A stretch of 64,000 nucleotides of DNA. It comes from Naegleria gruberi (lineage: Eukaryota). Under the pieces are notes generated by a model, which was not told the origin of the DNA, ran no database searches, and saw only the letters and a program-made list of their open reading frames with translations. The stretch's first letter is position 1. Each line of letters opens with the position of its first letter. The stretch lies in NCBI GenBank assembly GCA_000004985.1, contig GG738845.1; one strand, given 5' to 3'. Both the position numbers and the translations under genes were made by a program. Positions 189 through 63,659 of this stretch are shown here, piece by piece.

Positions 189-898
189 TTATTTAGAGTC
201 ATTTCCAAACACTAATTTTTGATTTAGGATATAATTTTGTTCCTTAACAGGCTGAAGAGTTTTTTTGGCCGATTTTGTAAAGTATGTATGCTTTGTAAGG
301 AAATCCAAATTAGAAATGTGCCATTCTCTTGGTGGGAATGGTTTTTTGTTTACCCTTTCTAATTCAAGTCTTAATGATTCGGATTTCAAAAAGTAAAGAT
401 CAGTTCCTAAATGAGCTAAATCGGCATCACAAATAATTTGGCACAATAAACAATCACCTGGATTTTGTGGTACTTGTGTAGCCATAATACATTTACAAAT
501 TCTATCTATTTGATCTTGAGTGTAACCAAATTGTGGCAAATATTTACGAGCTCTATCTGCTCCAAAAGGTTCATTCTTTGGATATTGATCGAGATATCCA
601 GTATCATGGAACAAGGCAGCAGTTTTTCTATTTAATTGTATTATTATCGGAGGAAGAATATTGTCAGCTGCTCTTAACAGTTTAAAAAAACCTACAAAAT
701 TAATGTATCTTCCTCGTTGAGACCTTCTTCTTGTGCCAATTTAATAGAATAACCAATAACATCTTCAAAAGTGTGATTTATGGAGTGATAGAACAAATTC
801 TTATCCAAAGCTTGCATTTGTTCATGTACAAGTTTGTATGCACCTTCATAGTCTGGCGTGGTAGCTGATGAGGTCATTTTTTGTATCTTTACTCCCAT
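189..898 (-). CDS. HD-domain metal-dependent phosphohydrolase, 2 exons
   Basis: Exons are 898..696 and 627..189, with a 68-nt intron at 695..628 (GTAGGT...AATAG). Splicing restores the classic HD signature: ...HSINHTFEDV...EEDTLIL|KTAALFHDTGY..., followed by CDADLAHLG. Summed exon length is 642 nt (214 codons). ATG at 898. Confidence 0.75.
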
Positions 899-1129
899 AT
901 AGCGTCAAGCGTTTTTTAATAAGCTGTTGATCAGAATTATTAGAATTATTATTATTTTCTAAGGAGAACTTGATACTGATGAACTTGTCATGTTCAAGAG
1001 GAAGGTGTTAAGGTTGGCACAAGTGAAATAAGTAGATTATTTAAAACAATTTCATGCACTATTTCTATTTAACGTTTGTTTGTAATTCAAAAACTATAAA
1101 TATGAATATTAATAAAATTATTTTTAAAA

Positions 1130-3529
1130 ATGAAGAACACAAGCAGTGGAAGAAACCTGTGTTCGTTGTTGATGAAGAAAAACCATCATCGGGTTACTGC
1201 TTCCAGACTTTCAGGAACCATTTCATCTCTTCACAACAATATATCAACATGGAAAAGTGTTCCTTCCTTCATTAATAACTCTATCACCATGGCTAGTAAT
1301 AATAATAATTGCAAATTCTATAGTATCATCTCCAATAATAATTTACAATCCGACAAGGAAGACAGGGATGATGATTTTATGGATGACAATTTAATTGAAG
1401 GATTTATTGTTGAATATTTTGATAAGAGTAGTAAAACCATCAAATTAGGCTTGTTGGATGAACATGAATCTGTTATTTATCAAGAGAATTTTACAAATGT
1501 TAAAAACAAGGATGTTGTCATTATAGAAAAGTGGTCAAACATGTTGACTACTTTGAATGATTTACGAGAAATTAGAGAAAAGGCTAATTATATGGTATTG
1601 GATGAAACCTATCAAGCAGATTTTGAACTAAGATTGGAAAATCTATTAATTGAAGGATTTACATCTGGAAAGAAATTTTCATCATCAACATTATCGAATG
1701 AATTATTTGAAATTCAAAGTATGATTACCAGATATATTGCTTTTTATTTATTTGAAAATTCTGGATGTTTCAAATATGATACAAGATCCAACAAGTATAT
1801 TGTTATTGAAACAGATTCTAGTCAGATTAGAGTTAAAGATTTTATAAGGAGAGCTAAGAAGCGTATTCAGGAAATTAATGACTTGAAACAAAAGAATGGT
1901 CAAATAGAAAACAATTCACAGCTTCTCAATGCGAATCTTCATACTAAATGGGATCCAATTATTGATGTGCCACTTTTGAGAAAAATGGAGTTTTTCATCC
2001 TTTCCAACTTTTTGAACTCTAAAAACAAGACTATCATTGAATCAATTTTAGAATCTTTCAGATATCCAAAGAATAGACGTGGAGCTGCCCAATTTCTACA
2101 TGCTGTTGGTCATATGCATTTTGAAAAGTCTTCAAATCTCATGGAAGAGAGTATGGACCCAGATTTTGAAAATGTAAAAAATCTCCCATCGATAGTCAAG
2201 CCATTCCCAAACCAAGTTGAAAGTGCTTCTCAAATCATGCTCAAACAAGTTACTTCATTGATTGAAAAGGAAAAGGAAAATATTTCGAGAAGAGACTTAA
2301 GAAAATTGAAATGTATTGCTATTGACGATATTTCTACACAGGCATACGATGATGCTGTCAGTATTGAAAAGACTGTGAATGGATATAAGATTTATATTCA
2401 TGTTTGTGATGTTTCCTCATTTATTACTAAGAATGATGCCCTTGAAACAGAATCTCGTTCCAGAGTTAAAACAATCTATGGAAAGAATGGTGTCCGTTTA
2501 ATGTTGCATCCTTGTGCTATCAGAGCTATCACGCTTTCACCAGAGAGAGAAAACCTAGGGTTCACTCTTGAACTCAGTCTTATAAAGAGTGGCTCAGAAC
2601 TTAAATTGGACAAGTATGAATTTTACAAATCCATTCTTCCAAAGGTTGAAATATTCACTTATAACACTGTAGACTCACTCTTCAATCAATTTGTAAAGAA
2701 AAAGATGGGCAACAAGTCAACTGATATGGATCAATCTCATCAATTGCTGATAGAAATGCTTCATATTTCAATCAATGTAGATAAGAGTTTGAATTTGGGG
2801 TTAATTTCCAAAACAAAATCAACTCCTGCTCACGATACTGTTGCAATTATTATGAGTATTGCCAATAGTGTCTTGGCTGCTCACATCAAGCAAGTAGATA
2901 TACAAAATCTATTCCCACAATCCAATTCATACTATAGATTTACTTCTCCTATGAGAAGGTATGCTGATTTGGTTACCCACATCCAATATAACTCATTACT
3001 GAACAATAGCAAGGAGCCTATCTATTCAGATAAGGAAATTAAGAATATTTGTACAGAAATTCAATCATTTGAAAAGGATATTTTGGAAACTCAACTAATG
3101 ATGGATAAGAAAAAGAGAGATTTGGCAACATCAAAAAATAAGAATCAATCGGTCAATAATAGCAATCAAAAGCAATCCAATAAGGTGATTGGTAAGGTTG
3201 TTAAAAAGAGAAAGGGTATGAGCTCTGTTTACATCCCATCTATGGATAAAACAATTTCTCTTCACTTGGTTGAATTTGACGAAGTGAAAATGATAGAGCT
3301 ATTGTCTGGCATTCTTCCCGAAACTGAAAAATCATCAATGGATATGCTTGGATGGCCTGCCCTTACTAAGAAAATGAAGGAAAATAGATCTCCAAATGAT
3401 ATTATGGAAGGTTCCAAAGTTGTCTTGAACATCAAACACATTGAATATTACGAAAACGATACTTACAAACCAAAGGTTATTGTTGCTGAACATTGTTTTG
3501 AAGAAAAGGTTGACAATTATACCATTTAA
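1130..3529 (+). CDS. RNB-family 3'-5' exoribonuclease (RNase II/R / Dis3-like), 799 aa
   Basis: Single ORF. RNB motif I is IAIDDISTQAYDDAVSI (2321-2356) and the conserved motif YYRFTSPMRRYADLVTHIQ is present. The ATG is preceded by an A-tract. The N-terminus is basic and S-rich, so possibly organellar. Confidence 0.8.
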   Translation: MKNTSSGRNLCSLLMKKNHHRVTASRLSGTISSLHNNISTWKSVPSFINNSITMASNNNNCKFYSIISNNNLQSDKEDRDDDFMDDNLIEGFIVEYFDKSSKTIKLGLLDEHESVIYQENFTNVKNKDVVIIEKWSNMLTTLNDLREIREKANYMVLDETYQADFELRLENLLIEGFTSGKKFSSSTLSNELFEIQSMITRYIAFYLFENSGCFKYDTRSNKYIVIETDSSQIRVKDFIRRAKKRIQEINDLKQKNGQIENNSQLLNANLHTKWDPIIDVPLLRKMEFFILSNFLNSKNKTIIESILESFRYPKNRRGAAQFLHAVGHMHFEKSSNLMEESMDPDFENVKNLPSIVKPFPNQVESASQIMLKQVTSLIEKEKENISRRDLRKLKCIAIDDISTQAYDDAVSIEKTVNGYKIYIHVCDVSSFITKNDALETESRSRVKTIYGKNGVRLMLHPCAIRAITLSPERENLGFTLELSLIKSGSELKLDKYEFYKSILPKVEIFTYNTVDSLFNQFVKKKMGNKSTDMDQSHQLLIEMLHISINVDKSLNLGLISKTKSTPAHDTVAIIMSIANSVLAAHIKQVDIQNLFPQSNSYYRFTSPMRRYADLVTHIQYNSLLNNSKEPIYSDKEIKNICTEIQSFEKDILETQLMMDKKKRDLATSKNKNQSVNNSNQKQSNKVIGKVVKKRKGMSSVYIPSMDKTISLHLVEFDEVKMIELLSGILPETEKSSMDMLGWPALTKKMKENRSPNDIMEGSKVVLNIKHIEYYENDTYKPKVIVAEHCFEEKVDNYTI

Positions 3530-3646: not shown

Positions 3647-6624
3647 TTATAGTTTTCGTTTAATGGTTCCTGGGTTAGATATTTCAATCAAATCTCTAAA
3701 GCAAAGAGCTCGCACCTGAACATTGAATAGAGATTGTAGTTTAGAATCATCCTTCTTTGCTTTTTTCATTTGTGCAAATCTCTCCAACCATTCAGCCACT
3801 TCAATTTCATACCTTACATTCATTTTACATTGTTCCAAGGTGTTTTTTGCCATGTACAAGTCTGGTGTTTCATGTTTTTCTTTTGTATTGTCACATAGGA
3901 ATAGAGTTGGATGGTAAAAGGCTAGATTGTACTCATAGCCTTCCCTCTTTGTGAGAGGTCTGATGAATTGATTGAGAGATTGTCCTTTCATAGGTTGAAT
4001 GAAAAATAATTCATTGAGCACCAACTTTTCGATCCATGGCCTTTTCGAATATTCTTTCGTATTGATGGAAATGAATTCGGTTTGATATATCGTAGAAGGA
4101 CTTGTAAACATGTCCGTAAATAGAGTTTTGAGCTTGCTTTGGACCTTCTTCCATGTTTCTTGAGAGATTTGTTCTGATGTTTCTGCTGTATCGATCTGAG
4201 AGGAGAGAATTGACTTTCTCTTTTGCTTTCTACCTTTGAAAATCGTTTCATCTTTGTATGTAGAGCAACATCCCTCACAATAATACTTGATAATGGTGTT
4301 GACTTCCTCTGGTGTAATGTCAATACATGAAAAGTGATAGTGATTTCTGCATCTTTCACACATAACCATTTCATTGGTTTTCCAAGATCCTCCACATTTA
4401 CAAAAAGTATTCTTCTTTCTTTTAGAGACTGATTTACCGGATTGGTGCTCTTTCAAAGCTTTACAATATTTACAATTAAATGCTCGTTTTTCACTGTAAT
4501 CAGTGGCCTTTTCCCCTACACATTTGCAGTGATACCAAATCTCACAACTCTCACACTGTATCATATCATCTCTTGAGCTATCATATATACCTCTACAGAA
4601 ACAATAATTTGTATCTTGTTGTTCAGTTCTAACACAAGTATTACAGTGGAAGGTTTTGGAAGGTGGGTTGTGAACTCCAACGCATGATTTGTGGAATACA
4701 TTATTGCAAAGATTACACTCAACCTTATCTCTTGGCTTGAGCTCGAGTTGACAAAAACAACTAGTCTTAGATTTGGGAATGAGTTGTTTTGGATCAAATT
4801 CTTCCTCATCGTCAGACATGTACTTAGCTGATTCAGAATTGGATTGGAATTGCTTTGTAAGATAATTCATTGTTTCTAGCGGTAAACTACTACTATCACC
4901 ACTGCTGATTAATTGTTCAGCAGTGGTATCGCTTGTTTGAATAGTTACATCTTTGAAAATGGAAGATAATGTATTATATTCCTCTTCAAATAGACCTTGG
5001 TTGCTTCTTATTTCATCAATTTTGACTTGCCAACAAGCTAAAAAGTCAACAATGTTTTCCTTTGGTATATCACCTCTATTATTGTTGGCATCATAAAGAA
5101 AAATATGATTAACTTACTTTAGTGCTGTAATAATCTTCTTGAACCAAGATTGCTCTTTGAAACTTCTTGGAGAAATAATGGACTGATGGATAATTAGGAC
5201 AAGATCGTCATTCTTCTCTTCACCAATTATTTCCAAGGTTTGTTTAACATTTTGCTCTTTAAAAACCAAGCAACGCAGGGCTATTTCGATCAATTCAACA
5301 ATGAGAGGATGAATGTAAAAGAAAAATCTGAATTGAGTTATACAGGGACTTATATCTTCTTCAGTAACATTGTTTCCACTTTAAACAACAACATTCTTAT
5401 CCAAACATTGATAAGGCTATTAACTTACAATTTCGATTTTACAGAAGGTAATGATTTCAATAGTGGCAATAACTCTTTAGAAAAGAGAATTTGTAAACAT
5501 TTTTCGTCTGGTAATGTGAAAAAAGCTCTAGTAAAAATAGAGAGTGGGCAATAGTGGAAATGTCTAGTATACAAATGCTATTCCATTTCAATAATTTCAG
5601 TAATCACATTGAAACTTACCTTGAGAGAGTTGGAAAAATGTTTGAGGGATGTAAAATCGTTCATTAAAAATTTCAAAACTTCATAGCTAGGTCTTAAATT
5701 AACATTGAAATTTTTCTGAATAAAGAGATCATTGGTACATTTCAAAAATAGTGGCTTTGCTAATGATTGAGTTTTGAACGTTTTGATTTGAAATCTGCTC
5801 AACTGTTGTACAATATTAGTTTGTTCAATTAAAAATAGTTTAACTTACATCAACATTCATCCCTTCCAAAATATCAACTCCCTTCTCATCCACTCTCAAG
5901 ATATTAATGATTGGAAATCTTGAAGAATATGATGAACACAACTCTAACCATTTTCCAATTTGAGGTACATTGTGAGTATTCTCGAAAACAAATACGATTG
6001 CCTTCTTTCCACCAGGTGAAGAATATGTCATTTCTTTAAGGGCGTCGGGTAATCCAAATACTTTGTTTGTATACTTTTGTGCAATTAGTGTCAATAGAGC
6101 TTTTAAGGTTGGAAACATTGTCTCTGATCTGAAAATGCAAACATGAAATCCGTCCAATTTTTGTCCTTTTTTTGGAGCTTCTTCCTCATAATCTTCATAG
6201 TCCTCGTATTCATCATATTCGTCATCATATTCCACATATGAATCTCTAATGAAAAATGATTCCATTAATTTGTCTATTATTTCGAAACAATTAACATTCG
6301 AAATGTGACATTTAACCTACTTGTTGTTGTTTTCAAAATGATTACAGGTGAAATACATTTACTCAAGCCTTTATCAAATCTTTCTGCAATATCCTGTAAC
6401 TCTTCAATAATTAACTCTTCAGTGTGGGTATTTTCTTCAGCACTTGCCTTTCTATTGATAAACTCTTCCACATTATGAATTGATGAATCTATAATTTTCT
6501 GATATTTATCATGTTTTAAAAAGTCCTTTCTTGCCTCCGATAAGTCTTGTTCTTCAAGAATCAACTTCTTCTTGTGTGATCTCCGCCTAGAACGAACAGG
6601 TATTGTCAAAGAGTTGTTTATCAT
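3647..6624 (-). CDS. ORC3: Origin recognition complex subunit 3-like protein with three inserted PHD fingers, 6 exons, 916 aa
   Basis: Exons are 6624..6321, 6273..5849, 5802..5620, 5577..5429, 5378..5118 and 5075..3647. Introns are 47, 46, 42, 50 and 42 nt, with GTAGGT/GTAAGT donors and AG acceptors; total 2751 nt is in frame. ORC3-like blocks recalled from human ORC3: AIVFVFENTH...RFPIINIL; FNVNLRPSYEVLKFLMNDFTSLKHFSNSLK|HLYTRHFHYCPLSIF; LPDEKC..SLPSVKS; FFFYIHPLIVELIEIALRCL. The C-terminal block is PDLYMAKNTLEQCKMNV..VAEWLERFAQM...RDLIEISNPGTIK. Three PHD fingers lie at 4759..4265: CFCQ..CNLCNNVFHKSCVG..HCNTC; YCFCRGIYDSSRDDMIQCESCEIWYHCKCVG..CKYC; FCKCGGSW..MVMCERCRNHYHFSCI..YCEGC. Confidence 0.72.
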
Positions 6625-6652
6625 TTTTTTAAAAACTAATTTTTTGAATAAA

Positions 6653-6662
6653 TTTTGGCGGG
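6653..6662 (-). promoter_or_regulatory. E2F-type element CCCGCCAAAA, 38 nt upstream of the ORC3-like ATG
   Basis: The plus strand reads TTTTGGCGGG at 6653-6662. It lies in the 66-bp spacer between the exonuclease stop (6691) and the ORC3-like ATG (6624). The same 8-mer recurs upstream of three other genes (see findings). Confidence 0.5.
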
Positions 6663-6690
6663 TAAAACATTATTGTTGCTTCCAAGAAAA

Positions 6691-8343: not shown

Positions 8344-8376
8344 TTTTTTTGATGAAGTTGACTTTGAAAAGTTTTA

Positions 8377-9159: not shown

Positions 9160-9263
9160 TTTTTTTGAATATTTAATATAATTAAATTTAGAATGAAAAA
9201 AATTAGAACCAATAATTTTTGGTTACCATTTAGAAATGGTTAAAATAATTTTCATCTCAATCT

Positions 9264-12111
9264 CTAGAGAAACTCTAACATTAATTCGTTTTCTTCTGGC
9301 AATGGAGCAATTCTGAAAGCCTTGACATGCATTGCTAAAGTTCTATCTGTTGTAAGGTAGTGTTCATTGATGTGAGCTAGGAGGTATAAAAGAAATTCTT
9401 CTAGAATAAATTCAGAACCATGTTGTTTGAATTCATCATGCAATTCATAAATAATTTCAATGAATTTTTCATGCTCCTTGAAATGTTCTTCCAACAAGTC
9501 GTTTTTAAGTAAGCATTCAATAAAGAGTCGTCTTTCTGCTTCAAAGGATTCTTGTAATGATTCAATGGCATCTTCCAAAATATAAATCCCAATATTCCAC
9601 TCCACTAGAGACACATTCTTGTTGGCTTTTGCCATTCTGAAAATTGATTTGGTCAAGTTATTAATTGTATCGAATAATTTCATGTAGCAAGTATCAATAA
9701 CACCTAAATTATAACCCAACTGATTAGTCCAAGCAATCAATTGTTCTCTAGGCAACACTGTAAGATTATTAATGGTTACCAAGTGTTGAGATTGTGTTGA
9801 GGTTGGTATTGTTCCACTCACAACATTACTTCCTCCATTCAGGTTATTACTTGCTGAGGAACCAGCTGTTGAACCATTTAGAACAGCACTGAAATCATCC
9901 ATAGATGAAGTCTGTCTGTGTGGAGTGGCAGATCCACTACTTTGACCGCTTTCTCCTCTATTTTTTGTAATCTTCTTGAATAGTCCAGCAAATCGATTAG
10001 AATCCTTGGTATCATCATTAATGATAATTCCCATTTCTTTTGCAACTTTCTTGCATGATTTGTGTTGCTTGTTTTGAATTTTTACATTGGCACCTCCAAT
10101 AGTAATCAAGAGATTGGAAGTTGATGGATTATTCAATTTCAATGAGAGATGAAGCCCCGTATCACCATCATTATTTTGTTCATCAATAGACATTTCATTA
10201 CTTGATATCAAAACCCAAAAGAATGCCTCATTGGGAATATCATGATTGTACAGGTAGCATTTTGAAGCAGAGAATGGAATGTGTACTGGTGTATTAGTAA
10301 TATTACTGCTATTATCTCCATAATACGATGGAGAATCACTGCTACTATTGCTGTTATTATCTGCACTGCCTGTTGAATCATTTTCATTACTGTTTTGGAA
10401 GGAGAAATTATTATTGACAGTTGGCGTTGAAATAATAGTTGCAGAATCAATTGGTTCACTTCCACTATTTGGTGTAATAATATTTGAGTTGACAACATTG
10501 GAGATGGAATTACCAACCAAGTTGACTGTATAGTGAAGAACAGTATTTCCCTTAACTCTATCTTTGAAATTTAAAAAGGCCTGAATTCTATCTAATGGTA
10601 TGAATTGAATTAAAATGCAAAACGAAATGAAATAACCCTGTTGAGCACATATATGAAGGAGAGTTTTGCCTAGTTGATCATCAGATCGAATCCATCTCTG
10701 AAACTCATCCAATGCATAATTTTTACAGAACCAATCACACAATTTGAACAACAATGAAGGGAATGGAAGTGAGCAGAATAGACAATTTTCCTCGAATCGG
10801 TTCTTTGTTGCAATGTTAATATTTGGCTGTTTAAGAATGAATTGAACTCGAGGCCAATCGTTCGATTCACATGCATCGTGTAAAATGGTATTTCCTCTCT
10901 TTCCCTTAAAATTGACATCAGCTCCAAACAGAATAAGAGCATCTGCTGTTTCAAAAAACCCTCCCGACAAGGCTATACCTAATGGAAAATTTTCATAAGC
11001 ATCACGAATATTAACTTGAGCTCCTTTTGATGCCAGAACATGACAGGCATCAGTGTGTCCATGAGCACTTGCTAAGAAAATTGGAGTACTATCCGATTTG
11101 TCAACAATATTAGGATTAGCTCCATACTTGTCAATTAAATATTCAATAATATGAGTATGACCAAATCTTGAAGCAATATGTAATAGTGATCTATCATTCT
11201 TTGTCTTGTCTCTAAATATTTGATTAATATCAAATAGTATGCCACCTCCTCCACCACTAGAAAATGAAGTATTTGACGGAACAAATAGGGATGTTGAATT
11301 GCTACTGGTAGAATTACCACCAGATGGTGACGAAGAGCCACCACTAGCCACTCTAGGTGAAATTGGATAAGTATTGTTTTTAATTGAATCCAGTAATCGA
11401 ACCAATTCATCCAAATACCCATACTCAATGCAGGCCAATACACGTTGTTCCATTGATAATTTAACATGTTCAAAATCTATTAATTGATCTCCTAATTATT
11501 ATTCAAAGTATTAACATGTGAATGTTGAATTAGATAGACATACCTGTATATAAATTATTTCCCAAATGTGGAGCTTCTAAAGTTAACAAAATTGGAGAGG
11601 ATCCAATTTCCAAATCATTCAGTTTAATCATGATGGATGGATTTGAATCTTTCAACCTATCATTTTGATGATTATCTGTAATATTTTCATCACAATCCAA
11701 TTTCTCTCCAAATTCATGGTAATGCATCTGCTGATTTTGAGAAGAGGAATCACTGAGTTGTGTGTCTTCTTGTTTCTTGTTGATTTTTTCATATTTTTCA
11801 CTTAGAATTTCACTACTCAGTGAGTGAACGCTCATATTTTCTATGAGCATTAAATCATCAGATTTTAATCTGTGATATGGAATGGTATTGTCCCCTAGCA
11901 TACACCTCCTAATACAATACAAGTCAAAGTGATATTTACATAGTGTTTTAATGGAGTGTTTTCCGGAAATTAGATTGTAATGAATGCTACTGGTACTTGA
12001 GAGAGATGTTAAATTATTATTGTTTGATGATGAGATGTTCATTGATGAAGAGGAAGGAAAAAGATTGGCAGATGATGAGTGTGGAGATGGTTGAGACATT
12101 TTTTGTAACAT
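9264..12111 (-). CDS. Ankyrin-repeat protein with low-complexity inserts, 2 exons
   Basis: Exon 1 is 12111..11544 with a GTATGT donor. Exon 2 starts at 11476 (67-nt intron) or 11491 (52-nt intron); both acceptors are in frame. Ankyrin repeats include SLLHIASRFGHTHIIEYLIDKYGANPN, TPIFLASAHGHTDACHVLASKGAQVN and NTILHDACE. An alternative ATG lies at 12099. Confidence 0.7.
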
Positions 12112-13173: not shown

Positions 13174-13504
13174 GATCCGATAAAAAATATCGTGGTGAAT
13201 AATAATTTTACACTCTCACAATAACATACCACCCTTTGAAAGCATTAACGATGATTTTTGATTTGCTCCTCTTAGTGATGCTGCTCCCGAGGAGGAGAGA
13301 AGTGTCGACGATGTATGTGGGTTGAGCATTTTTTATTATTTTAAATTTAAAAATATTATGTCACAGGTTGCCGCTAAATTTTTGGCTATTGTGAAACCGT
13401 CACAGAATTAGTAGTGTATTAATAACGGAAAACAAGAAACAAGCTTTACACAGTTTGATCCAATAGAGAAATTTTCCATTTGTGATTAATTGCAATTATA
13501 AAAA

Positions 13505-24591: not shown

Positions 24592-24660
24592 AGGTATTGA
24601 AAGAATTAAACAGATTTAATCGAGCGGTGTTATTAATAGTTGTAGGTTTGTACGAACATT

Positions 24661-24669: not shown

Positions 24670-24699
24670 TTTGTAGTTTAAAAAAACAACTTTAAAAAA

Positions 24700-47731: not shown

Positions 47732-47843
47732 GATTTACAACGTTGTTTTCGTAGGCGAACTGGTTAGAAAGCGCGTCTTCTAGATTAATTGGCCTTTCAT
47801 CGCTAATCACACTCACTACAAAATTCAGAACCACAAGAGATGA

Positions 47844-48257: not shown

Positions 48258-49285
48258 ATGGCCACAAACTACTTGATGGAAAATTATACAATTATTGAGA
48301 AGATTGGTGAGGGAACATTCGGACAAGTATTAAAAGCAAAAAGGTAAGTAGTAAAAGGAAGATAATGATCTTTAATATAATTTAGGAAGGCTGATGGACG
48401 AGTTGTGGCCTTAAAGAAAATTAGAATTAGGAAACAAGAATTTGAAGACTTTCCGAAAAATGTAATTAGAGAAGCAAAAAGTCTTCAACATGTGTGCCAC
48501 AATAATGTCATCAAGTTGTATGATGTCTTTGTGAATGGATCATCTCTTGTTCTCTCATTAGAATTTATGAAAACAGATTTGGCAAGAATTATTAAAGCCC
48601 AAAGGACACCCTTCCTTGAGTCTCATATCAAATGTATAATGCTAATGATGTTAAAGGGTCTCCACAATTGTCACACCAATAGTATCATGCACAGAGTATG
48701 TAGGAAAGTGTAATTATTTAGAAATTAATTATGTGGAATTATTAGGACATCAAACCTGCCAACTTACTTTTCAATCACAACGGAGAGTTAAAACTGGGAG
48801 ATTTTGGATTGGCTACGTTGTATCTTGGAAAGAATGAATCTTACTCACATCAAGTTGCAACAAGATGGTACAGAGCTCCAGAACTTTTGTATGGAAGTAG
48901 ATCTTATGATTGTAAAGTAGATATTTGGGCAGCTGGTTGTGTCATGGCAGAATTGTACAATCTTTGTCCCTTATTCACTGGTGAAAATGATATTGATCAA
49001 TTATATAAGGTACTTTCACTTTTGGGAATTCCTTCAGAAAATAATTGGCCAGGAGTTTCCAAGTTGCCAGATTTTGGCAAGATAACCTTCTCGAAAATTA
49101 AAGTGAGAACGATCAGTGAACTAGTTCCAGGAGCTCCTGATTTGGCTCTTGATCTTATGTCACATCTATTAAGATTTGACAATGATGAAAGATATAGTGC
49201 TGAGGAGGCCTTAAGACATCCATACTTTTTTAGTGAACCTTTGCCTTGTGATTTTTCAGAGCTTAAATTGCCAAACAAGATGTAG
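48258..49285 (+). CDS. CDK20: Cyclin-dependent kinase 20 (CCRK / LF2-type), 3 exons, 311 aa
   Basis: Exons are 48258..48343, 48386..48695 and 48746..49285. Introns are 42 and 50 nt (GTAAGT..TTTAG; GTATGT..ATTAG). Splicing restores GEGTFGQVLKAK|RKADGRVVALKKI and IMHR|DIKPANLL. SHQVATRWYRAPELLYG and HPYFFSEPLPCDFSELKLP parallel human CDK20. Confidence 0.85.
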
Positions 49286-49357: not shown

Positions 49358-50620
49358 TTATTCTACAAGGGCTTCAAACTTATCAATTGGATCAGCATTG
49401 ATTGGTTCTGTATTGGAATTCCAATCAAACTTGAGAGAGACATACACTCCCTTATTATTACAAACGAGAATGGATTCATCATTAGTCTCAAAAGTACAAA
49501 CTGACACACCATCAATATTTGGATATTTAAATGTGCTAGTAGGTGTAGTTTCAAGAGGTTCATAAATTGTGGTTGTTACATAGCTCCAAATTGTTGATAG
49601 ACTAGAATTGGCAGAATTTTCAGTGTTGCTTGCTAGTCTGGCTTTCCACTCTTTAAAGTCTACTACAAACACATGGAGTGTCTCTCTAGAAACACACGAT
49701 ATCAAGTCTCCCTTATGATTAAAAGTGAGAGAATAAATTTCCTTTGCCAAATTACCTCTTCTGAATTCATGAATTTTCACACCTGTATCAATGTTGAACA
49801 CTCTTACCAACGTTCCCTTCTCAGAAACAGTTGCCAACATGGATCCATCCTGATTCAAGGCAACACATCTTATTGAAGATTCATGAGCTCTAATTGTAAT
49901 TTCAGAAATTATTTCATAATTTTCGTGGCCAATGGTAACAACCTTTACCTCTCCAACTTGTTCATCCAAAATAGCCAGCAAGTACTCTTTCTTTTGCTTA
50001 TTGTAAATAAAGGTGGATATACCATATGAATTGAGGGTTGTCTTCCATGAGTGTACTTGTCGTTTGGTTTGTAAATCAAAAATATACACCATATCCTCAG
50101 CAACAACAGCAAATCTGATAATTCAAGTTTGATTATTACAATAAATCAATTAAATATAATTAAAATCAAATAATAAACTTACAAATTCTTCTTTGAATGA
50201 ATACTTATAATATTCCTTGGGCAAATCAACTCATTTGTGACCTTTCTTTCTTTATAATTGTAAAAAACAACCTTATTCATTGCAAATGCTGGTCGAGAAC
50301 CTCCTCCGACAAGGGCAACTGTGCCCTTATCCTCATCCATGAAACAAACAAATGAAATTCCTCCATCAATAAATTCTAATGTTACGATGATGATTAGTCT
50401 AATCAACAATTTAAAACTCACTATGATCAAATACCCTCTCACAAAATCCGTAAGCACACGAAATAATTCTAAACCCTTGATCCTTTCCGTAGGCTAACAT
50501 TGTAGAATCTTGGTTAAATCCGATGAATAGAGTATTATTATTATTGGTGTTGCTATTCGATTGCTCTCCAACAGCATTGTCAGAACCAACATTACTTCTC
50601 GGAACGACCACAAAAGACAT
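49358..50620 (-). CDS. ATG18: WD-repeat phosphoinositide-interacting protein (PROPPIN; WIPI/Atg18), 3 exons, 382 aa
   Basis: Exons are 50620..50422, 50375..50183 and 50114..49358. Introns are 46 and 68 nt. LFIGFNQDSTMLAYG, ALVGGGSRPAFAMNKVVFYN and the FRRG lipid-binding motif (HEFRRGN) are present. Confidence 0.85.
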
Positions 50621-52473: not shown

Positions 52474-53126
52474 TTACTCTTCATCGCTTTTTGTTTCAGA
52501 TTGTTGAACTTGTTTGTTATTCTCCCTTACTTGACTAACCTTTTTAGAAATGGAAGAAAGAAATGCATCTGCAGACACATTTCCTTTATCATTAGTTGAG
52601 GCAAAAACTCCTTGTTGGGAAACTTCAGGTAATTCCTCTCCTCTTTCAATTCTCCTCTTTTTTTCATTTTCTCCCTATTGATATGTTTTTCAACAATTTA
52701 ATGATAATAACAAATTATTTTTACAATAAATCCACAAATTGAATCCACACTTACAACATAATAAATCAATCCAACAATAAATCCAGCAACAATCATCACA
52801 TTACCCAAATTTTGTGCCAATTTAATTCTTTCTTCTTGTTTTTCCTTTCTCTTACTACCATCCAATTTAGCAGTTAAAAATTCAGATAATTCTCTTTTAA
52901 TATTATACATCTTTTCTTGTGCTTCCTTTCTATCCTTCTTTCTTTCCTCCTCGACATCATTATTCAATAATTTATTCCAAGTTGAAAATGATTTTCCAAA
53001 TTCTTTTCCTGATATTAAATAGTGTTGTCTAAAAGTATCATTGTTGCAACAATTATGTGTTTTAGTTACGATAGTTGCTCGGATTATTCTTCCTTGATTG
53101 AATGCACTTTTTGATTGTTTAATCAT
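52474..53126 (-). CDS. Hypothetical single-pass membrane protein, 2 exons, 190 aa
   Basis: Exons are 53126..52755 and 52674..52474, with an 80-nt intron (GTAAGT...CAATAG). TM segment: NVMIVAGFIVGLIYYV. Exon 2 is an open 66-codon frame ending in TAA at 52474-52476. No family recognised. Confidence 0.45.
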
Positions 53127-53204: not shown

Positions 53205-54999
53205 ATGAATGAACAAGTATTATCGAGTACACTTTCACATTTTGAAAGTCTATTCGAAGTTCTTTTAGAAAAACAACAAGAAACTTCTGAACAATTACAA
53301 GAAATTATTTCCGAAAGAAATTCAATATGGCACGAAAAGATTATTCCCAAAATTGAACAATTGTATTATAAAAAGAGAGAATTTCATTTAAATAATGAAT
53401 TTCTCTCGTTAAAATCCAATAGGATGGATTCTCTTGTAAAGGAATTAATCGGAAGAGAGGATGAAAAACAAAACAGATTAATTGAGACTAGAAACATTGT
53501 TAAGGATAAATTTCAAGACTTGTTTAAATTGATAGGGATGGAAATGGATTATTTACATAATTTATCTAACTCTTCAAAAATTGGAGAGGATGCCAAGATC
53601 TTTCTGAAAATTCCAAAGAATTTGGATACTGAAGGGAGAATTGATTATTTATTGAATAATGTAGAGGAAAATATTAGAAACGAGTATAAGGATAAAAATC
53701 AATTGAAATATTACGAGATTGGGAAAAAGTTTGTTGAATATTTCAATCAGAGGGAAAATGAAAAAATTAGGAAAAACAACAAGATCGTCCTCAAGGAACA
53801 AAAGGACAAGCCAATGAATGAAAAATTGAACCAGCTGAGAGGGTTCATTGAAGACACATTCCATTTCAGTACAAGAAAAAAGAGTGAGTAATTTAATTGA
53901 GAATATTGATGGAATATTAATAGTTATCCAAAGTGCTAAATATGTATTATATTGCAAGATTAAATTCAATTATCATTACAATTTTCAACAAATACTGAAT
54001 CAGGAATCAACCATAACAACATTTGATGCTTGGTGTGATAAATATTCAATACTGGAACGGTTCAATAATGAAATAAGGGAAGTATATTACAAACGACAAT
54101 TATTTTCCAATAGTGAGGAGTATGATTTGAATATTCTCAAACCTAGTGTTGAAATAACTAATCATTCAACATTCAACCTCTCCAGAAAAATCTCAGAACC
54201 AAGAAATAACAATCCTATGAAAACTATTCTAGGTCTATATTTATTTTCCCTAATACTTTCAGATCCTATTCTACTAGGTCAAGACGAAACAAAAGTACAA
54301 AGCCTAAGAATATTATTTATTGAACTTGTAAATCGAACGCAATTCAAACATTTTTCTCGGTTGTTGCCTGATATGAAATTGTCAATATTAACAACTAATC
54401 TCGTAAAACTGAAAAGTGAAAAACAGAGCTATTTAAGGTACTTAATTAGCAAATATCAAACATCTCCTCAAGATGAAAAACTACTAAGATTAATGTTTAC
54501 TCTACATAATTGTGGAGTCAACAAGCTTTCTCAAACAAAAAAGAGGGAATTGGAGAAAATTGCAATGTCCATGATATTTCGAGAAGCTGCCAATTGTATT
54601 TCCATTAATGATTTCATGGTCATGTCCAAACTGTATAATATTGAAAATATCATTTCACCTTTATTAGTGGGTAAAAATTTGGAGTTTATCCCTACCGTTT
54701 CAAACCAGAAAAATCATGTCGAAGAATTGTTCCAATTATGGGACATCTTCAGTGAGTTGTTAGAAACATTTAAACAGAACCAGGTTGAAATGATTAAAAG
54801 AGCGAGAATGGAAATAACAGAGAGTATCAAATATATTTGTCAAAAATTGACATCACTTGTGATTTCATCTCAAGAGGGTTCCCTTTTACTTGTAGAAGAA
54901 ATGTTTTCACTTTTGGAATCTTCATACCATTCCCTTAAACATTTTCCTGATCTGCAAAATATGATTGAGCACACCCTTCAGTCCATAATAAAACTGTAA
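53205..54999 (+). CDS. Hypothetical protein, 2 exons, 584 aa
   Basis: Exons are 53205..53883 and 53924..54999, with a 40-nt intron (GTGAGT...TAATAG) that joins the two track ORFs in frame. The track start at 53184 is TTG; the first ATG at 53205 follows an A-tract. The N-terminus is coiled-coil. No family recognised. Confidence 0.5.
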
Positions 55000-55196: not shown

Positions 55197-56723
55197 TTAT
55201 TGAATTTGTTGTTGGAAAGTCTCAACCTCATTAGAGACAAGTATCTTGATATCCTCAGTTTTAATATCCTCACTGAATTGATAATCAAAATTAGCTTGAC
55301 AAAAGTAAGTATTTTCAGAAGTGTTTGGATCGGTATTATATTCATCCTGATCGAACATTTCTTTCAGATAGGGATGTCTAAGAGCATCTCTAACTGTTAT
55401 TCTCTTTTCAGGATCCCATGTGAGCATTCTTTCAAGCAAATCAATTGCTAATTGATTCGTAACATGTGAAAAGATTTGACCGAAATTCTTCTTTTCATAT
55501 GTTTGCTTAAAGTGAGTCTTCATAAATTTAATTCCTTCACTGCAACCTCTAATTTCCTCATCCTTTGGAGTACCAACCAAACGTAAAATCAATTCCAATT
55601 GATCCTTAAAATCTTTGCCAGGAAACAAAATAGGTCTTCCATTTTTGTGAAGTGGTTTCACTAAGAGTTCCTATTAAAATGACTGTTATTAGAAAGAATA
55701 AAATTATACACATACAGCAAAAATACATCCAATTGACCACATATCCATAGCAGCATGCAATTTGTTCCAATACAAAATCTGATGCAACTATTTAGAAAAT
55801 ACATGTAGATCAGTACTTACAACTTCTGGACTTCTGTACCATCTTGTCACAACATATTTGGAATCTTCTGGATAATCTTGACCAATGGCTCTACTCAAAC
55901 CAAAATCACATATTTGTAAATCCAAATCTCTATTCAGCAGAATATTGCTTGGCTTTAAATCTCTGTGAATTATATTACTGCTATGCATGATATTAACTGC
56001 TTTTAAAATTTCATGAAGAAAGTATTGGATAGATTGTTCACTAAATGTCTGATTACTTGACAAGAGTTTTTCCAAATCAAAATCCATCAAATTGGTGACA
56101 ATATAAATACTTCCAGGTTGATAAGGATCAAAGAATAAATCCTTAAGTAATACAACATTATGGGCACTAAATTGTCTGAAATGTTTCAAAATTTTGATTT
56201 CTCTTAAAATTCTCTTTTGATAATTTCTATCTCTTTCATAGAGACTGGATACTTTTTTAATGGCAACTCTTTCATTATTCTTATTATCCAATGCACTCAC
56301 AACACAACCAAATCCACCAGCTCCTTTTACACCATCCATTGTATATCTCTTTGGTAATGAAAATGTGTTTCCATTTACAGAATATTGTACATATTCCGGA
56401 GAGGAAGTTTGTCTACTTGCTTGTTGACCAGTAAACATTTGATTATTATTCGGATATGATGAATTTCCTCCATTAAATAATTGTTGTTGTTGATTATAGT
56501 ATTGTTGCTGTTGTTGTTGATAGATATCATGTTGATGAGCCTGAATGAATGAAGCTTGATCGGAATATTGTTGTTGAGTATTGTAATTTGAACCATTGTA
56601 TTGCGGTTGTTGTTGTTGTTGATTTCCCATCACCATGTTCATATTGTTCAGTTGTTGGTGTTGGTAGGAATTATTGTTGTTGTGGTGTTGTGGAAGCATT
56701 TTTATTATTTTAATATTCTTCAT
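55197..56723 (-). CDS. MAP-kinase-like Ser/Thr kinase with Q/N-rich N-terminus and atypical S-K-Y activation loop, 3 exons, about 479 aa
   Basis: Exons are 56723..55821, 55778..55716 and 55670..55197. Introns are 42 and 45 nt; a 33-nt alternative for intron 1 is also in frame. GAGGFGCVVSA, VAIKK, HRDLKPSNILL, DFGLSR, SKYVVTRWYRSPEV|ILYWNKLHAAMDMWSIGCIFA|ELLVKP. An alternative ATG lies at 56699. Confidence 0.8.
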
Positions 56724-58356: not shown

Positions 58357-59358
58357 TTATTTCTTACGTCTAAGATTAGCAACGAAACCTTGCTTAACAG
58401 CTTGCACAGTTCTTGAAGCTTGGCAGTTAGAACAGTGAATAGAATAGAGACGAGTTGTGGAATCACGGTTGAGTCTAGTGTCCAAACTATTACAAATCTT
58501 ACAAACAACATATTCGGTAATGTACTTTCTCAACAAGTTTTCAATATCCTTACTCTTGAATGCACCACGAATAACAAGTCTGTTGCTACCATCCAAGTTA
58601 CCAGTTGTACCCAATTCGGCGAACAAGTAGTCCAAGACGTGTTGTTCAGCACGATGTAAGTTGGCACAAATTTCAGTAAAGTTGATAAGAACAGTCTTCT
58701 TTGGACCGTCTCTGGCAACTTGTGGAGTTTTAACCTTGATTGGCTTTCTCTTACCACCACCCAATTCTGGGTTGTTCTTCTTGAGTGTATCGAAAATACG
58801 TTCTAAAAGTTCTGGGTACTTGTAGTCACGATCAGACTTGTTCCAAGCGAGTGGACCATGGTCTTCATCCTTGGCCAAAAGTGAAGCCAAATCTCTTCCA
58901 GAATTTTCCATATCACCTTCACCTTCCTTATCTTCACTCCAGTAGGATCCTCCAGTGCTTTGGGATTGTTGTTTCTTGCTGAGAATTTGAGCAACTTCGG
59001 TACTCTTCTTTGTCTTTAACAAATCAATAATTTCTGATACTTGTTCATCATCTTCAACATTAATATCAATGTCTTGAGAGTTATCAGTTGGAAGAACCTT
59101 TTCCAAAGCTTCCTTGAAAAGTTTGGCCTATTTTAAAATATTAATTTAATAAATTGATGATGATTAAAAACTTACAGCATCCTTGAGAATGACTTGCAAT
59201 TCTTCGGAGTCTACCTTATCTTCAGAGGATTTCTTCTTCTTTTCGGTTTTTTCAGTCTTTTCTGTCTTTTCAGTCTTTTCAGCTTTTTCTGATGACTTTT
59301 TTGTGGTCTTCTTCTTCTTCAAGTCGAGACCGAGGGCCTTTTCGTCTACAACGCTCAT
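58357..59358 (-). CDS. EIF2S2: Translation initiation factor eIF2 beta subunit, 2 exons, 317 aa
   Basis: Exons are 59358..59176 and 59127..58357, with a 48-nt intron (GTAAGT...AAATAG). N-terminal lysine boxes (KKKKTTKK, KKKK) are present. The core reads YKYPELLERIF..L..NNPEL...VLINFTEICANLHRAEQHVLDYLFAELGTTGNLDG..RLVIRG. The C4 zinc ribbon is CKICNSLDT...CSNC. Confidence 0.9.
59241..59290 (-). repeat. 9-nt tandem repeat (GAAAAGACN)n encoding (EKT)n in eIF2-beta exon 1
   Basis: The plus strand reads TTTCGGTTTTTTCAGTCTTTTCTGTCTTTTCAGTCTTTTCAGCTTTTTC. It encodes EKAEKTEKTEKTEKTEKKK. Confidence 0.8.
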
Positions 59359-62518: not shown

Positions 62519-62543
62519 AAAAATATTTCAGATAAAGAGAATT

Positions 62544-63659
62544 TTAATATCTATAATCCCCTCCATGTGAATCTTGTCTCGAATGATGATGGTGATTGTC
62601 GTATGATCCTCGTTGATGATGATTATCTCTATAGTAGCTTCCACCTCTATCACGATCGCCACCAGATTTATAATAGCTTCCACCTCTCCTATCTGAATAT
62701 GAAGATGATCCACTCTGATAGCTGTTGTGTCTGTAATCTCTTTGAGTGTTAACGTTGGTTGATCCACTTTCTGATGAGGAACTGGATATATTTTCAGGTT
62801 TTTTAAAACTCTCAGGATCCTTTTCATACATTTCCAACTTATTTGTGAGATATTTGAAAGCGTCATTAAACTTTTTTTCCTCTTGTGGAGCAAGTCTAGC
62901 CACATGTTTAGCAATTGACTTTTTCGATCGGTTGACTTTAATTTCCTTATCTAGTAATTTAGCTCCTGATAACAAAATAGCCTTGTTGGCAGCTTCAATC
63001 TCTAAAAATTCAATAAATGCAAATCTACATGGATGTTTATCATCTCCAGCCAATCTTATGCAAGCAACTGGTCCACACGAACTGAAAAAATCCACAAGAT
63101 CATTATGATTAGCTCTCAAATTAATATTTCCAACATAGATCGTCCTCGCAATTTCTTTATCCTTTTCAACATCACCAGTACTATATACAAGATTATTATC
63201 TACATTTGGATCACCAATTTGTTGAATGAATGGATTTAAAGCCTTTGAAGATGATTCTTGGGATGCTCCAATCAAAATTTCAGCTGCCGTATTTCCACTC
63301 GACAATTGAAATGATGAAGATGATGAAGATTGTGCAGAATTATCATTCAATCCCGTTATTTGTAATTTAAATCCTAACATTGGTGTTCCATTTAATTTTA
63401 TAGCTTTTTGAGCAGAACTCTCCTCCATAAAAATTATTTTAAATTTTGTATCTGATGAAGAACTATTCGGAAATTATTATTACAAACATATTTTAAAAAA
63501 CATTAGAAATTAAAAATCACCACCATAAAATACATACTTTAATTGTTCCATCATTTCAATTTCTCCACAATAATTAAAAAATGTTTGTAGAGTACTTTCG
63601 GAAATGGTTGGGGCAATATTAGAGACGAGAACAGTTCTCTCTGATGTATGGCTTGACAT
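62544..63659 (-). CDS. Two-RRM RNA-binding protein with R/G/Y/H-rich tail, 2 exons, 346 aa
   Basis: Exons are 63659..63538 and 63462..62544, with a 75-nt intron (GTATGT...GAATAG). RRM1: RTVLVSNIAPTISESTLQTFFNYCGEIEMMEQL|N..KFKIIFMEESSAQKAIKLNG. RRM2: RTIYVGNINLRANHNDLVDFFSSCGPVACIRLAGDDKHPCRFAFIEFLEIEAANKAI. Tail: GGSYYKSGGDRDRGGSYYRD. Confidence 0.8.

What the first reader, a model, noticed from the sequence alone, without database searches (positions are those of the whole stretch)
189..63659. Micro-intron population: 15 of 23 mapped introns are 40-50 nt long
Hand-mapped intron lengths, in window order: 68; 47, 46, 42, 50, 42; 67 (or 52); 79, 51, 44, 46; 86; 44; 42, 50; 46, 68; 80; 40; 42, 45; 48; 75. 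All start GT(A/G)(A/T/G)GT and end (A/T/C)AG, often ATAG or ACAG. Each restores a conserved motif across the junction, for example DEPT|NHLD twice, GP|NGAGKS, HR|DIKPAN and FDGPCP|FAKNQEQRKRRF. Introns of 40-50 nt are near the lower limit for spliceosomal introns. Splitting ABC signature and kinase catalytic motifs at identical codon positions (the two DEPT|N junctions) hints at ancient intron positions. The ORF track alone would fragment at least 13 genes.
Basis: seen in the sequence. Interest (0 to 1): 0.3.

Follow-up and report, generated by a model that had tools for sequence, protein, structure and literature searches.

The report
Ordinary short introns of Naegleria gruberi
The window is a piece of the Naegleria gruberi nuclear genome, and the 23 hand-mapped interruptions are real, conventional spliceosomal introns of the short (about 40-90 nt) size normal for this amoeba; most are already in the public annotation and they are not especially ancient.

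Summary
All 23 introns sit at the stated places with the stated lengths: mean 54 nt, median 47 nt, range 40-86 nt, and 15 of 23 in the 40-50 nt band. All have GT[AG]NGT donors and YAG or AAG acceptors. Their GC content is 22%, against 33% for the window.

The window is Naegleria gruberi NEG-M. Two spliced models match RefSeq proteins residue for residue.

Twenty of the 23 junctions are backed by domain continuity or collinear homologues. All five introns of the PHD-finger gene lie at the same positions and phases in N. fowleri. Three junctions (C, I, L) rest on intrinsic signals only.

At least 14 of the introns are already in RefSeq. One RefSeq model fuses four genes through dubious introns.

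- 40-50 nt is an ordinary minimal-intron size, not near the spliceosomal lower limit.
- DEPT|N is the Walker B motif, not the ABC signature.
- The "ancient position" hint fails for the ABCF gene. None of its four intron positions is shared with a jellyfish, a legume or a Chlorella orthologue. Two close relatives lack all four.

Low interest; already known in kind.

The parts
628..695 (-). Intron A, 68 nt, phase 2, in the HD-domain gene (CDS 898..189)
   Evidence: GTAGGT..ATAG. The Pfam HD domain covers aa 47-137 in one stretch across the junction at aa 67.67.
6274..6320 (-). Intron B1, 47 nt, phase 1, in the PHD-finger gene (CDS 6624..3647)
   Evidence: Present in RefSeq XP_002683524.1. The N. 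fowleri orthologue aligns without gaps and has an intron at the same position and phase.
5803..5848 (-). Intron B2, 46 nt, phase 0
   Evidence: As for B1.
5578..5619 (-). Intron B3, 42 nt, phase 0
   Evidence: As for B1.
5379..5428 (-). Intron B4, 50 nt, phase 2, AAAG acceptor
   Evidence: As for B1.
5076..5117 (-). Intron B5, 42 nt, phase 2
   Evidence: As for B1.
11477..11543 (-). Intron C, 67 nt (alternative in-frame acceptor at 11492 gives 52 nt), phase 1, in the ankyrin-repeat gene (CDS 12111..9264)
   Evidence: RefSeq uses the 67-nt form. No homology spans the junction. The downstream ORF has an ATG only 14 codons in, so two separate genes cannot be excluded. This is the weakest of the 23.
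22486..22564 (-). Intron D1, 79 nt, phase 2, splits DEPT|N of Walker B in ABC domain 1 of the ABCF gene (CDS 23277..21237)
   Evidence: The spliced product equals XP_002683528.1 exactly. An independent metagenome contig, L001, carries it. It is absent from relatives and from distant orthologues.
21897..21947 (-). Intron D2, 51 nt, phase 0, splits GP|NGAGKS (Walker A of domain 2)
21733..21776 (-). Intron D3, 44 nt, phase 0
21451..21496 (-). Intron D4, 46 nt, phase 2, splits DEPT|N of Walker B in ABC domain 2
   Evidence: It shows no sequence similarity to D1 beyond shuffled controls.
30966..31051 (-). Intron E, 86 nt, phase 0, in the GlcNAc-1-phosphotransferase-like gene (CDS 31285..26715)
   Evidence: Exon 1 encodes the conserved N-terminal membrane anchor found in the N. 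lovaniensis, Willaertia, Diplonema and dictyostelid homologues. The N. lovaniensis gene is intronless and collinear across the junction. RefSeq model P0010 lacks exon 1.
32002..32045 (+). Intron F, 44 nt, phase 2, AAAG acceptor, in the XRN-like gene (CDS 31646..33240)
   Evidence: Xrn1 (PDB 3pie) aligns without gaps over aa 85-132, across the junction at aa 118.67.
48344..48385 (+). Intron G1, 42 nt, phase 2, in the CDK gene (CDS 48258..49285)
   Evidence: One Pfam Pkinase stretch covers aa 10-293. RefSeq XP_002683217.1 equals the model minus its first 6 aa. Present in contig L002.
48696..48745 (+). Intron G2, 50 nt, phase 0, splits HR|DIKPAN
50376..50421 (-). Intron H1, 46 nt, phase 1, in the PROPPIN/WD40 gene (CDS 50620..49358)
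   Evidence: The spliced product equals XP_002683534.1 exactly. One PROPPIN stretch covers aa 34-283.
50115..50182 (-). Intron H2, 68 nt, phase 2
52675..52754 (-). Intron I, 80 nt, phase 0, in a gene of unknown function (CDS 53126..52474)
   Evidence: Intrinsic evidence only. Exon 2 is a 66-codon ORF with a good coding score and no ATG. RefSeq XP_002683535.1 is the unspliced 142-aa ORF.
53884..53923 (+). Intron J, 40 nt (the shortest), phase 1, in a gene of unknown function (CDS 53205..54999)
   Evidence: The 640-aa homologue P0261 contains both halves and aligns without gaps for 25 aa on each side of the junction. RefSeq annotates the first, unspliced ORF as its own 228-aa gene, XP_002683219.1.
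55779..55820 (-). Intron K1, 42 nt, phase 0, in the MAPK gene (CDS 56723..55197)
   Evidence: One Pkinase stretch covers aa 134-424. An internal AG at 33 nt would add 3 aa absent from the kinase consensus (inference and family knowledge).
55671..55715 (-). Intron K2, 45 nt, phase 0
   Evidence: An internal AG at 33 nt would add 4 aa (inference).
59128..59175 (-). Intron L, 48 nt, phase 0, in the eIF2-beta gene (CDS 59358..58357)
   Evidence: Intrinsic evidence. There are 72 open codons upstream of the first ATG of exon 2. Exon 1 has a high coding score and carries the lysine-rich blocks expected of eIF2-beta. RefSeq has only a 162-aa partial model.
63463..63537 (-). Intron M, 75 nt, phase 2, in the two-RRM protein gene (CDS 63659..62544)
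   Evidence: The spliced N-terminus gives RRM_1 over aa 10-74, profile positions 1-69 of 70, 27.9 bits. Exon 2 alone gives no RRM match.

Best explanation
The window is nuclear DNA of the amoeboflagellate Naegleria gruberi (strain NEG-M). The 23 interruptions are conventional U2-type GT-AG spliceosomal introns.

Their anatomy is as follows:
- a strong 5' splice site (GTAAGT, GTATGT, GTGAGT or GTAGGT) that can pair with U1 and U6;
- an AT-rich body;
- no polypyrimidine tract;
- at most a degenerate branch site (NTAAT or YTRAY);
- an (A/T)(A/T)YAG 3' end.

At this size they would be recognised across the intron (intron definition). The 3' site would be the first usable AG beyond the branch point.

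The narrow 40-50 nt peak is the species' minimal-intron class, kept small by genome compaction. It is not a special population.

Shown here: boundaries, composition, restoration of reading frame and domains, collinearity with homologues, conserved positions in N. fowleri, and agreement with part of RefSeq.

Inferred, not shown: actual removal from mRNA, the branch points, and the recognition mode.
For: Organism: the spliced ABCF and PROPPIN models are identical to N. gruberi XP_002683528.1 and XP_002683534.1.

Junctions supported by domain continuity:
- Pkinase over G1/G2 and K1/K2, and HD over A;
- PROPPIN over H1/H2;
- RRM_1 over M;
- Xrn1 over F.

Junctions supported by homologues:
- Gene B aligns without gaps to its N. 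fowleri orthologue at all five junctions. That gene has introns of 58, 43, 60, 53 and 54 nt at the same positions and phases, plus one extra 61-nt intron.
- E is collinear with the intronless N. lovaniensis gene.
- J is collinear with a 640-aa homologue.

Other evidence:
- Intron GC is 22%, against 33% for the window.
- Independent metagenome contigs, 99.0-99.9% identical to the window, carry the same eight intervening sequences. Their few differences are about fourfold denser in introns than in exons.
- Intron density here is 23 introns in about 39 genes, with 13 genes interrupted. This fits the published 1.7 exons per gene (PMC8296547) and 10,688 introns in 15,709 genes (PMC6142364 supplement).
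Against: No transcript evidence could be reached.

Three junctions (C, I, L) have no homology across them. RefSeq annotates I unspliced and L only as a partial model.

The C acceptor is ambiguous between 52 and 67 nt.

The branch-site motif is not significantly enriched: YTRAY occurs in 13 of 23 introns, against 10.6 in shuffles.

The published mean intron length for N. gruberi is 203 bp, far above the 54 nt seen here. Either this window is atypical or the published mean is driven by long or artefactual introns.
Confidence: 0.93

Rival explanations
1. A minority of the 23 junctions are wrong in detail. C may be two adjacent genes or may use the 52-nt acceptor. I and L may be read-through ORFs or partial genes, as RefSeq has them. 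The population would then be 20-22 introns rather than 23.
For: No homologue or domain spans C, I or L. RefSeq XP_002683535.1 is the unspliced I ORF. The separate C ORFs also exist as gene calls on metagenome contigs. C's downstream ORF has an ATG only 14 codons in.
Against: I's second exon is 66 open codons with a good coding score and no ATG. L's second exon has 72 open codons before its first ATG. At about 7.5% stops per random codon these correspond to chances of about 0.006 and 0.004 (my arithmetic from base composition). RefSeq itself splices C. All three have consensus donors and AT-rich bodies.
Confidence: 0.3
2. One reading: the intron positions, especially the paired DEPT|N introns, are ancient. 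They would date to the last eukaryotic common ancestor, or to before the duplication of the ABC domain.
For: The two introns lie at homologous codons, in the same phase, with identical flanking exon sequence (ACNAA|CCATCTTGAT). Many N. gruberi introns are reported to share positions with other eukaryotes (PMC3488318, citing the genome paper). An Arachis intron lies 8 nt downstream of D1.
Against: None of the four ABCF positions coincides in position and phase with any of the 9 Rhopilema, 4 Arachis or 12 Chlorella introns. Yet Arachis and Chlorella share one position, and Rhopilema and Chlorella share another, in the same alignment. So the method does detect shared positions. Relative L004 (79% protein identity) is intronless. 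Relative L006/L007 (79%) has a single intron elsewhere, in Walker A of domain 1. Two-domain ABCF proteins also exist in bacteria (family knowledge), so the internal duplication predates spliceosomal introns.
Confidence: 0.08
3. The interruptions are not introns. They would be assembly or sequencing errors, pseudogene lesions, or copies of a mobile 'introner' family.
For: None specific. One 14-mer is shared by introns E and D3.
Against: The same sequences are present in independently assembled contigs. All have GT..AG ends and restore conserved domains. Positions are conserved in N. fowleri. There is no family-level similarity among the introns: the shared k-mers are AT-rich and of low complexity, and D1 against D4 scores 15.5 where shuffles give 13.3 +/- 2.2.
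Confidence: 0.01

Closest known systems
Annotated spliceosomal introns of Naegleria gruberi NEG-M (JGI/RefSeq gene models, 2010 genome)
   Same: Same organism and same loci. At least 14 of the 23 introns (B1-5, C as 67 nt, D1-4, G1-2, H1-2) are already in RefSeq models. Intron density matches published figures.
   Different: RefSeq XP_002683524.1 fuses four genes through weak-donor 'introns' of 188, 114, 138, 44 and 33 nt. The 33-nt one removes a conserved strand of the exonuclease domain: 29.1 bits with it, 21.1 bits without. The published mean length of 203 bp is far above the 54 nt seen here.
Minimal-intron class of compact eukaryotic genomes (for example fission yeast, many fungi, C. elegans; modal lengths roughly 45-60 nt, from my own knowledge)
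   Same: A narrow length peak just above the size needed to fit the 5' splice site, branch point and 3' splice site. Strong GTAAGT-type donors. Presumably intron definition.
   Different: Naegleria introns here lack a clear branch-site consensus and a polypyrimidine tract, and end mostly in AATAG.
Ultra-short introns (Paramecium, Bigelowiella nucleomorph; 35-nt Giardia intron)
   Same: Short, AT-rich, GT-AG introns.
   Different: Those classes are shorter: 35 nt for the Giardia intron (PMC1201135), and 'extremely short' for Paramecium and the B. natans nucleomorph (PMC3488318). Nothing under 40 nt is supported in this window, and the one 33-nt RefSeq intron fails the domain test. So 40-50 nt is not near the known spliceosomal minimum.

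Membership tests
U2-type (GT-AG) spliceosomal introns | GT at the 5' end and AG at the 3' end | tested here: met
   23 of 23.
U2-type (GT-AG) spliceosomal introns | Extended 5' splice-site consensus complementary to U1/U6 (GTRAGT-like) | tested here: met
A3 in 21/23, A4 in 16/23, G5 and T6 in 23/23. However, only 6 other such donors with open flanks exist in the window.
U2-type (GT-AG) spliceosomal introns | Branch-point motif (YTRAY-like) 10-40 nt upstream of the 3' splice site | tested here: inconclusive
   YTRAY in 13/23 against 10.6 in shuffles. NTAAT in 18/23 against 11.2.
U2-type (GT-AG) spliceosomal introns | Removal restores a continuous, homologous coding sequence | tested here: met
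   20 of 23 junctions are spanned by a single Pfam domain stretch, a collinear homologue or an exact RefSeq product.
U2-type (GT-AG) spliceosomal introns | Absence from mature mRNA | not testable with these tools
   No RNA-seq or cDNA of N. gruberi could be reached. Look-ups in the contig collection for the N. gruberi proteins returned nothing.
U2-type (GT-AG) spliceosomal introns | Position and phase conserved in orthologues of related species | tested here: met
   Gene B: five of five positions and phases are shared with N. fowleri. Not met for the ABCF gene in two unnamed relatives.
U12-type (minor) introns | [AG]TATCCTT donor and TCCTTAAC branch site | tested here: not met
   No intron has a TATCC donor; all are GTRNGT.
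Introner-like mobile intron families | Many introns sharing extended sequence similarity | tested here: not met
   Only low-complexity AT-rich k-mers are shared, and there are no repeats of intron sequence elsewhere in the window. The test is limited to 64 kb.
Introns inherited from the last eukaryotic common ancestor (ABCF gene) | Same codon and phase in orthologues of distant intron-rich lineages | tested here: not met
   None of the four positions is shared with Rhopilema, Arachis or Chlorella. Those three do share positions among themselves.

The most novel reading that the evidence does not exclude
The two Walker-B introns of the ABCF gene (D1 and D4) may be lineage-specific parallel insertions. 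They lie at homologous codons of the two ABC halves, in the same phase, with identical exon context ACNAA|CCATCTTGAT. They are absent from the closest available relatives and from animal, plant and green-algal orthologues. If they are parallel gains, this would be a natural example of sequence-targeted intron gain in a heterolobosean.

A more modest companion reading is that the published 203-bp mean intron length of N. gruberi is inflated by gene-fusion artefacts of the kind seen in XP_002683524.1. The true mode would then be about 45 nt, with a floor near 40 nt.
Probability: 0.3. Interest if true: 0.35.

Novelty: already known. Interest (0 to 1): 0.12.

Why it matters
It matters little for biology. 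Short GT-AG introns at about 0.6-0.7 per gene are the documented state of the Naegleria genome.

The practical value is for annotation. The hand-mapped models correct several RefSeq entries in this window:
- They restore the membrane anchor of the GlcNAc-1-phosphotransferase homologue.
- They rejoin a gene that RefSeq splits in two.
- They probably complete eIF2-beta and a small membrane protein, though those two junctions (L and I) rest on intrinsic signals only.

My own mapping of the RefSeq models onto the window also showed that one 2425-aa RefSeq 'protein' is a fusion of four genes.

The window also suggests a working lower bound of about 40 nt for Naegleria introns, which is useful when setting aligner and gene-finder parameters.

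Tried and rejected
1. Looking up the N. gruberi annotation around the window through the look-up of encoding contigs failed. That genome's genes are not on record there.

2. A first chimeric query made of junction segments was swamped by low-complexity words and returned only the gene B orthologues. A second was swamped by GlcNAc-phosphotransferase homologues. So no orthologues were obtained for C, I or L.

4. Metagenome contigs L001 and L002 are 99.0-99.9% identical to the window. That is too close for an exon-versus-intron divergence test beyond a handful of differences.

5. Candidate extra introns were examined and rejected:
- A 57-nt candidate upstream of the calmodulin gene (47760-47816) has no upstream ATG, and the gene is complete without it.
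- The 105-nt (13125-13229), 98-nt (31466-31563) and 79-nt (24642-24720) candidates are not needed, because the Pfam domains and N-termini are complete without them.
- The RefSeq 33-nt intron 7252-7284 is rejected by the domain score.

6. An intron-duplication origin for D1 and D4 was rejected: they show no similarity beyond shuffled controls.

7. A published median intron length for N. gruberi could not be found. The machine-read supplement table of PMC6142364 is truncated before the N. gruberi row, and the genome paper is not held.

8. Rfam and tRNA scans of the window were empty, so there is no sign of intron-hosted RNAs.

Full report
**Source of the window.** The window has 33% GC and is densely packed with ORFs on both strands. 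An exact-sequence look-up showed that the four-intron ABCF model is identical to Naegleria gruberi XP_002683528.1. The two-intron WD40 model is identical to XP_002683534.1. Both lie on a 1.56-Mb scaffold. The window is therefore N. gruberi NEG-M nuclear DNA.

**Check of the observation.** Scanning both strands for GT[AG]NGT...[ACT]AG segments that join open frames recovered every one of the 23 introns at a unique place with exactly the listed length.
- Lengths run from 40 to 86 nt, with mean 54.3 nt and median 47 nt. Fifteen of 23 fall in the 40-50 nt band.
- Donor positions 1, 2, 5 and 6 are invariant. A is at +3 in 21 of 23 and at +4 in 16 of 23.
- Acceptors are ATAG (12), TTAG (4), ACAG (3), TCAG (2) and AAAG (2).
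- Intron GC is 22%, against 33% for the window and 28-41% for the flanking exons.
- All quoted junction peptides are reproduced.

Specificity comes from the consensus, not from GT..AG alone. With the strict donor, AT-richness and flanks of at least 24 open codons, the window yields the 23 reader donors plus only 6 other donor sites. Those 6 have short flanks and fall in implausible frames or strands. With bare GT/GC..AG there are 1677 ORF-bridging candidates.

**Evidence junction by junction.**

*Domain continuity:*
- One Pkinase stretch spans both CDK junctions and both MAPK junctions. One HD stretch spans junction A.
- One PROPPIN stretch spans H1 and H2.
- RRM_1 covers aa 10-74 (profile 1-69 of 70, 27.9 bits) only when M is spliced. 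Exon 2 alone gives no RRM match.
- Xrn1 (PDB 3pie) aligns without gaps across F.

*Comparative evidence:*
- The N. fowleri orthologue of the PHD-finger gene B aligns without gaps at all five junctions.
- Mapping that protein onto its genomic locus gave six introns. Five of them (58, 43, 60, 53 and 54 nt) lie at the same positions and phases as B1-B5. One extra 61-nt intron lies after aa 278, at a site that is uninterrupted in N. gruberi.
The N. lovaniensis gene is intronless and collinear across the junction.
- For J, the 40-nt intron, a search with exon 2 alone found a 640-aa homologue. Its first 237 residues match exon 1 (41% identity). It aligns without gaps for 25 residues on either side of the junction.

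In all, 20 of 23 junctions have independent support.

*The three without homology:*
- L and I rest on intrinsic evidence. Each has a long open stretch upstream of any ATG in the downstream exon, a good coding score and consensus signals.
- L's exon 1 also carries the lysine blocks expected of eIF2-beta (family knowledge).
- C is the weakest. Nothing spans it, both acceptors are in frame, and the downstream ORF could stand alone.

*Alternative acceptors in the MAPK gene:* for K1 and K2 an internal AG at 33 nt would add 3 or 4 residues that the MAPK consensus lacks. The 42- and 45-nt forms are therefore preferred (inference).

*Not assembly artefacts:* metagenome contigs 99.0-99.9% identical to the window carry the same eight introns of the ABCF, CDK and WD40 genes. 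In the contig with the most differences, substitutions occur at 0.4% in exons. Three of those fall at third codon positions 6 nt apart. Substitutions occur at 1.5% in introns. Indels are confined to intergenic DNA. The numbers are small.

**Relation to the public annotation.**
- At least 14 of the 23 introns are already in RefSeq models: D1-4 and H1-2, G1-2, and B1-5 and C as 67 nt.
- Four are not in RefSeq. The GlcNAc-phosphotransferase model is the single-exon ORF, 91 residues short at the N-terminus. The unspliced I ORF and the first J ORF are separate RefSeq proteins. The eIF2-beta model is a 162-residue partial.
- The status of A, F, K1-2 and M could not be determined.
- RefSeq XP_002683524.1 (2425 aa) maps from 12099 to 4014. 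It fuses the ankyrin gene, an HSP20-like gene, a 3'-5' exonuclease gene and the PHD-finger gene. The fusion runs through 'introns' of 188, 114 and 138 nt with poor donors (GTTTCT, GTCTAA, GTACAA), plus a 44-nt and a 33-nt intron.
- The 33-nt segment encodes a conserved strand of the exonuclease domain. The Pfam score is 29.1 bits with it and 21.1 bits without it, and removal loses the N-terminal third of the match. It is coding sequence.
- The N. fowleri orthologue of gene B is a stand-alone gene, which argues that the fusion is an artefact.

**Is the length class unusual?** The intron density here is 23 introns in about 39 genes, with 13 genes interrupted. This agrees with the published 1.7 exons per gene (PMC8296547) and with 10,688 introns in 15,709 genes (PMC6142364 supplement). 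The published average intron length is 203 bp for N. gruberi and 126-144 bp for N. fowleri. That is far above the 54 nt found here and the 43-61 nt of the six N. fowleri introns I mapped. I could not find a published median. The fused RefSeq model shows one way the mean could be inflated, but that is an inference from one locus. The N. fowleri study set the minimum intron length for read mapping to 30 bp 'based on an assessment of predicted genes', so short introns in the genus are recognised.

A 40-50 nt mode is the ordinary minimal-intron size of compact eukaryotes (my knowledge). Clearly shorter classes exist: a 35-nt Giardia intron (PMC1201135), and Paramecium and the B. natans nucleomorph described as 'extremely short' (PMC3488318). 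'Near the lower limit' is therefore overstated. Within this window, however, nothing under 40 nt survives testing.

**Splicing signals.** No polypyrimidine tract is visible. The last five bases are mostly AATAG. YTRAY occurs in the 3' 30 nt of 13 of 23 introns, against 10.6 expected. NTAAT occurs in 18, against 11.2 expected. The branch site is therefore degenerate or undetectable at this sample size. The exon base before the donor is A or T in 19 of 23, so there is no AG|GT proto-splice pattern. No intron has a U12-type donor. The introns share only low-complexity k-mers, so there is no introner-like family.

**The 'ancient position' hint.** DEPT|NHLD is the Walker B / D-loop region, not the ABC signature. 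Both DEPT|N junctions lie in the one ABCF gene, one per ABC half, in phase 2, with identical exon context.

I mapped the introns of ABCF orthologues from a jellyfish (9 introns), a legume (4) and Chlorella (12), and placed them on one alignment.
- None coincides in position and phase with any of the four N. gruberi introns.
- The nearest lie 8, 9 and 12 nt away.
- The legume and the alga share one exact position, and the jellyfish and the alga share another. The method therefore does detect shared old positions.

Two genomic contigs from unnamed close relatives were also examined (79% protein identity to N. gruberi by tblastn).
- One (L004) encodes the orthologue as an uninterrupted 598-codon ORF.
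- The other (L006/L007) has a single intron elsewhere, in Walker A of domain 1, and none of the four.
- Either the four introns were gained on the N. gruberi lineage, or the relatives lost them, for instance by recombination with cDNA. The data cannot decide between these.

D1 and D4 are no more alike than shuffled controls, so a recent copy of one into the other is unlikely. Because two-domain ABCF proteins also occur in bacteria (family knowledge), the introns cannot predate the internal duplication. The hint is not supported. By contrast, the gene B introns are conserved at genus level.

**Verdict.** The thing observed is the normal intron complement of a sequenced and annotated organism. 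The residual value is in annotation fixes and in a small open question about the paired Walker-B introns.

Noticed in passing
window 4014-12099 (-): RefSeq XP_002683524.1 (2425 aa) fuses four separate genes: ankyrin, HSP20-like, 3'-5' exonuclease and PHD-finger. The fusion runs through weak-donor 'introns' at 9086-9273, 8336-8449, 6587-6724 and 4101-4144, plus a false 33-nt intron at 7252-7284.
   Followed up: yes
window 26715-31285 (-): The RefSeq GlcNAc-1-phosphotransferase model (1403 aa) lacks the 78-residue first exon. That exon encodes the conserved membrane anchor present in all homologues examined.
   Followed up: yes
window 37402-38206 (+): Two overlapping ORFs in different frames look like a truncated or frameshifted PLD-type phosphatidyltransferase (PGS1-like). 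The first has 86 aa ending '...VVLSSLYLGTGEQEKKIIQV'. The second has 195 aa with a PLDc_2 match. Most of the first PLD domain is missing. No convincing intron joins them.
   Followed up: partly
L004:3181-4977; L006:7618-9478; L007:8169-10029: Unnamed metagenome/SRA contigs encode ABCF orthologues with 79% protein identity to N. gruberi. They have no intron, or one different intron. Both relatives have DEPSNHLD instead of DEPTNHLD in both ABC halves, which is a parallel T-to-S change.
   Followed up: partly
L003:10936-10996: The N. fowleri orthologue of gene B has a sixth intron (61 nt, after aa 278) at a site that is uninterrupted in N. gruberi. This is an intron gain or loss within the genus.
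   Followed up: partly
L001, L002 (ENA ERZ929261); the 5618-nt contig: A public metagenome assembly contains contigs 99.0-99.9% identical to N. gruberi NEG-M. The same or a very close strain was therefore present in that sample.
   Followed up: no
window 55671-55820 (-): Both MAPK introns contain an internal in-frame AG exactly 33 nt from the donor (AATAG, ACAG), just downstream of a CTAA(A/T) motif. The distal AG fits the kinase alignment. This suggests that AGs very close to the branch point are skipped, or that minor alternative 3' sites exist.
   Followed up: partly
window 14287-18783 (+): A 1498-aa single-exon ORF has a C-terminal calpain protease domain. It is preceded by about 1100 residues of T/N/V-rich low-complexity repeats.
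   Followed up: no
window 47161-47628 (-): An intronless calmodulin gene (155 aa, four EF hands). A consensus-looking 57-nt GT..CTAAC..AG segment lies upstream at 47760-47816. It is non-coding, and could be chance or a 5'-UTR intron.
   Followed up: partly
L011:10001-15387: The N. lovaniensis GlcNAc-phosphotransferase orthologue is annotated as three consecutive genes (1015, 230 and 439 aa). This is probably a split annotation. Its convergent arrangement with the syntaxin-6-like neighbour is shared with the window.
   Followed up: no
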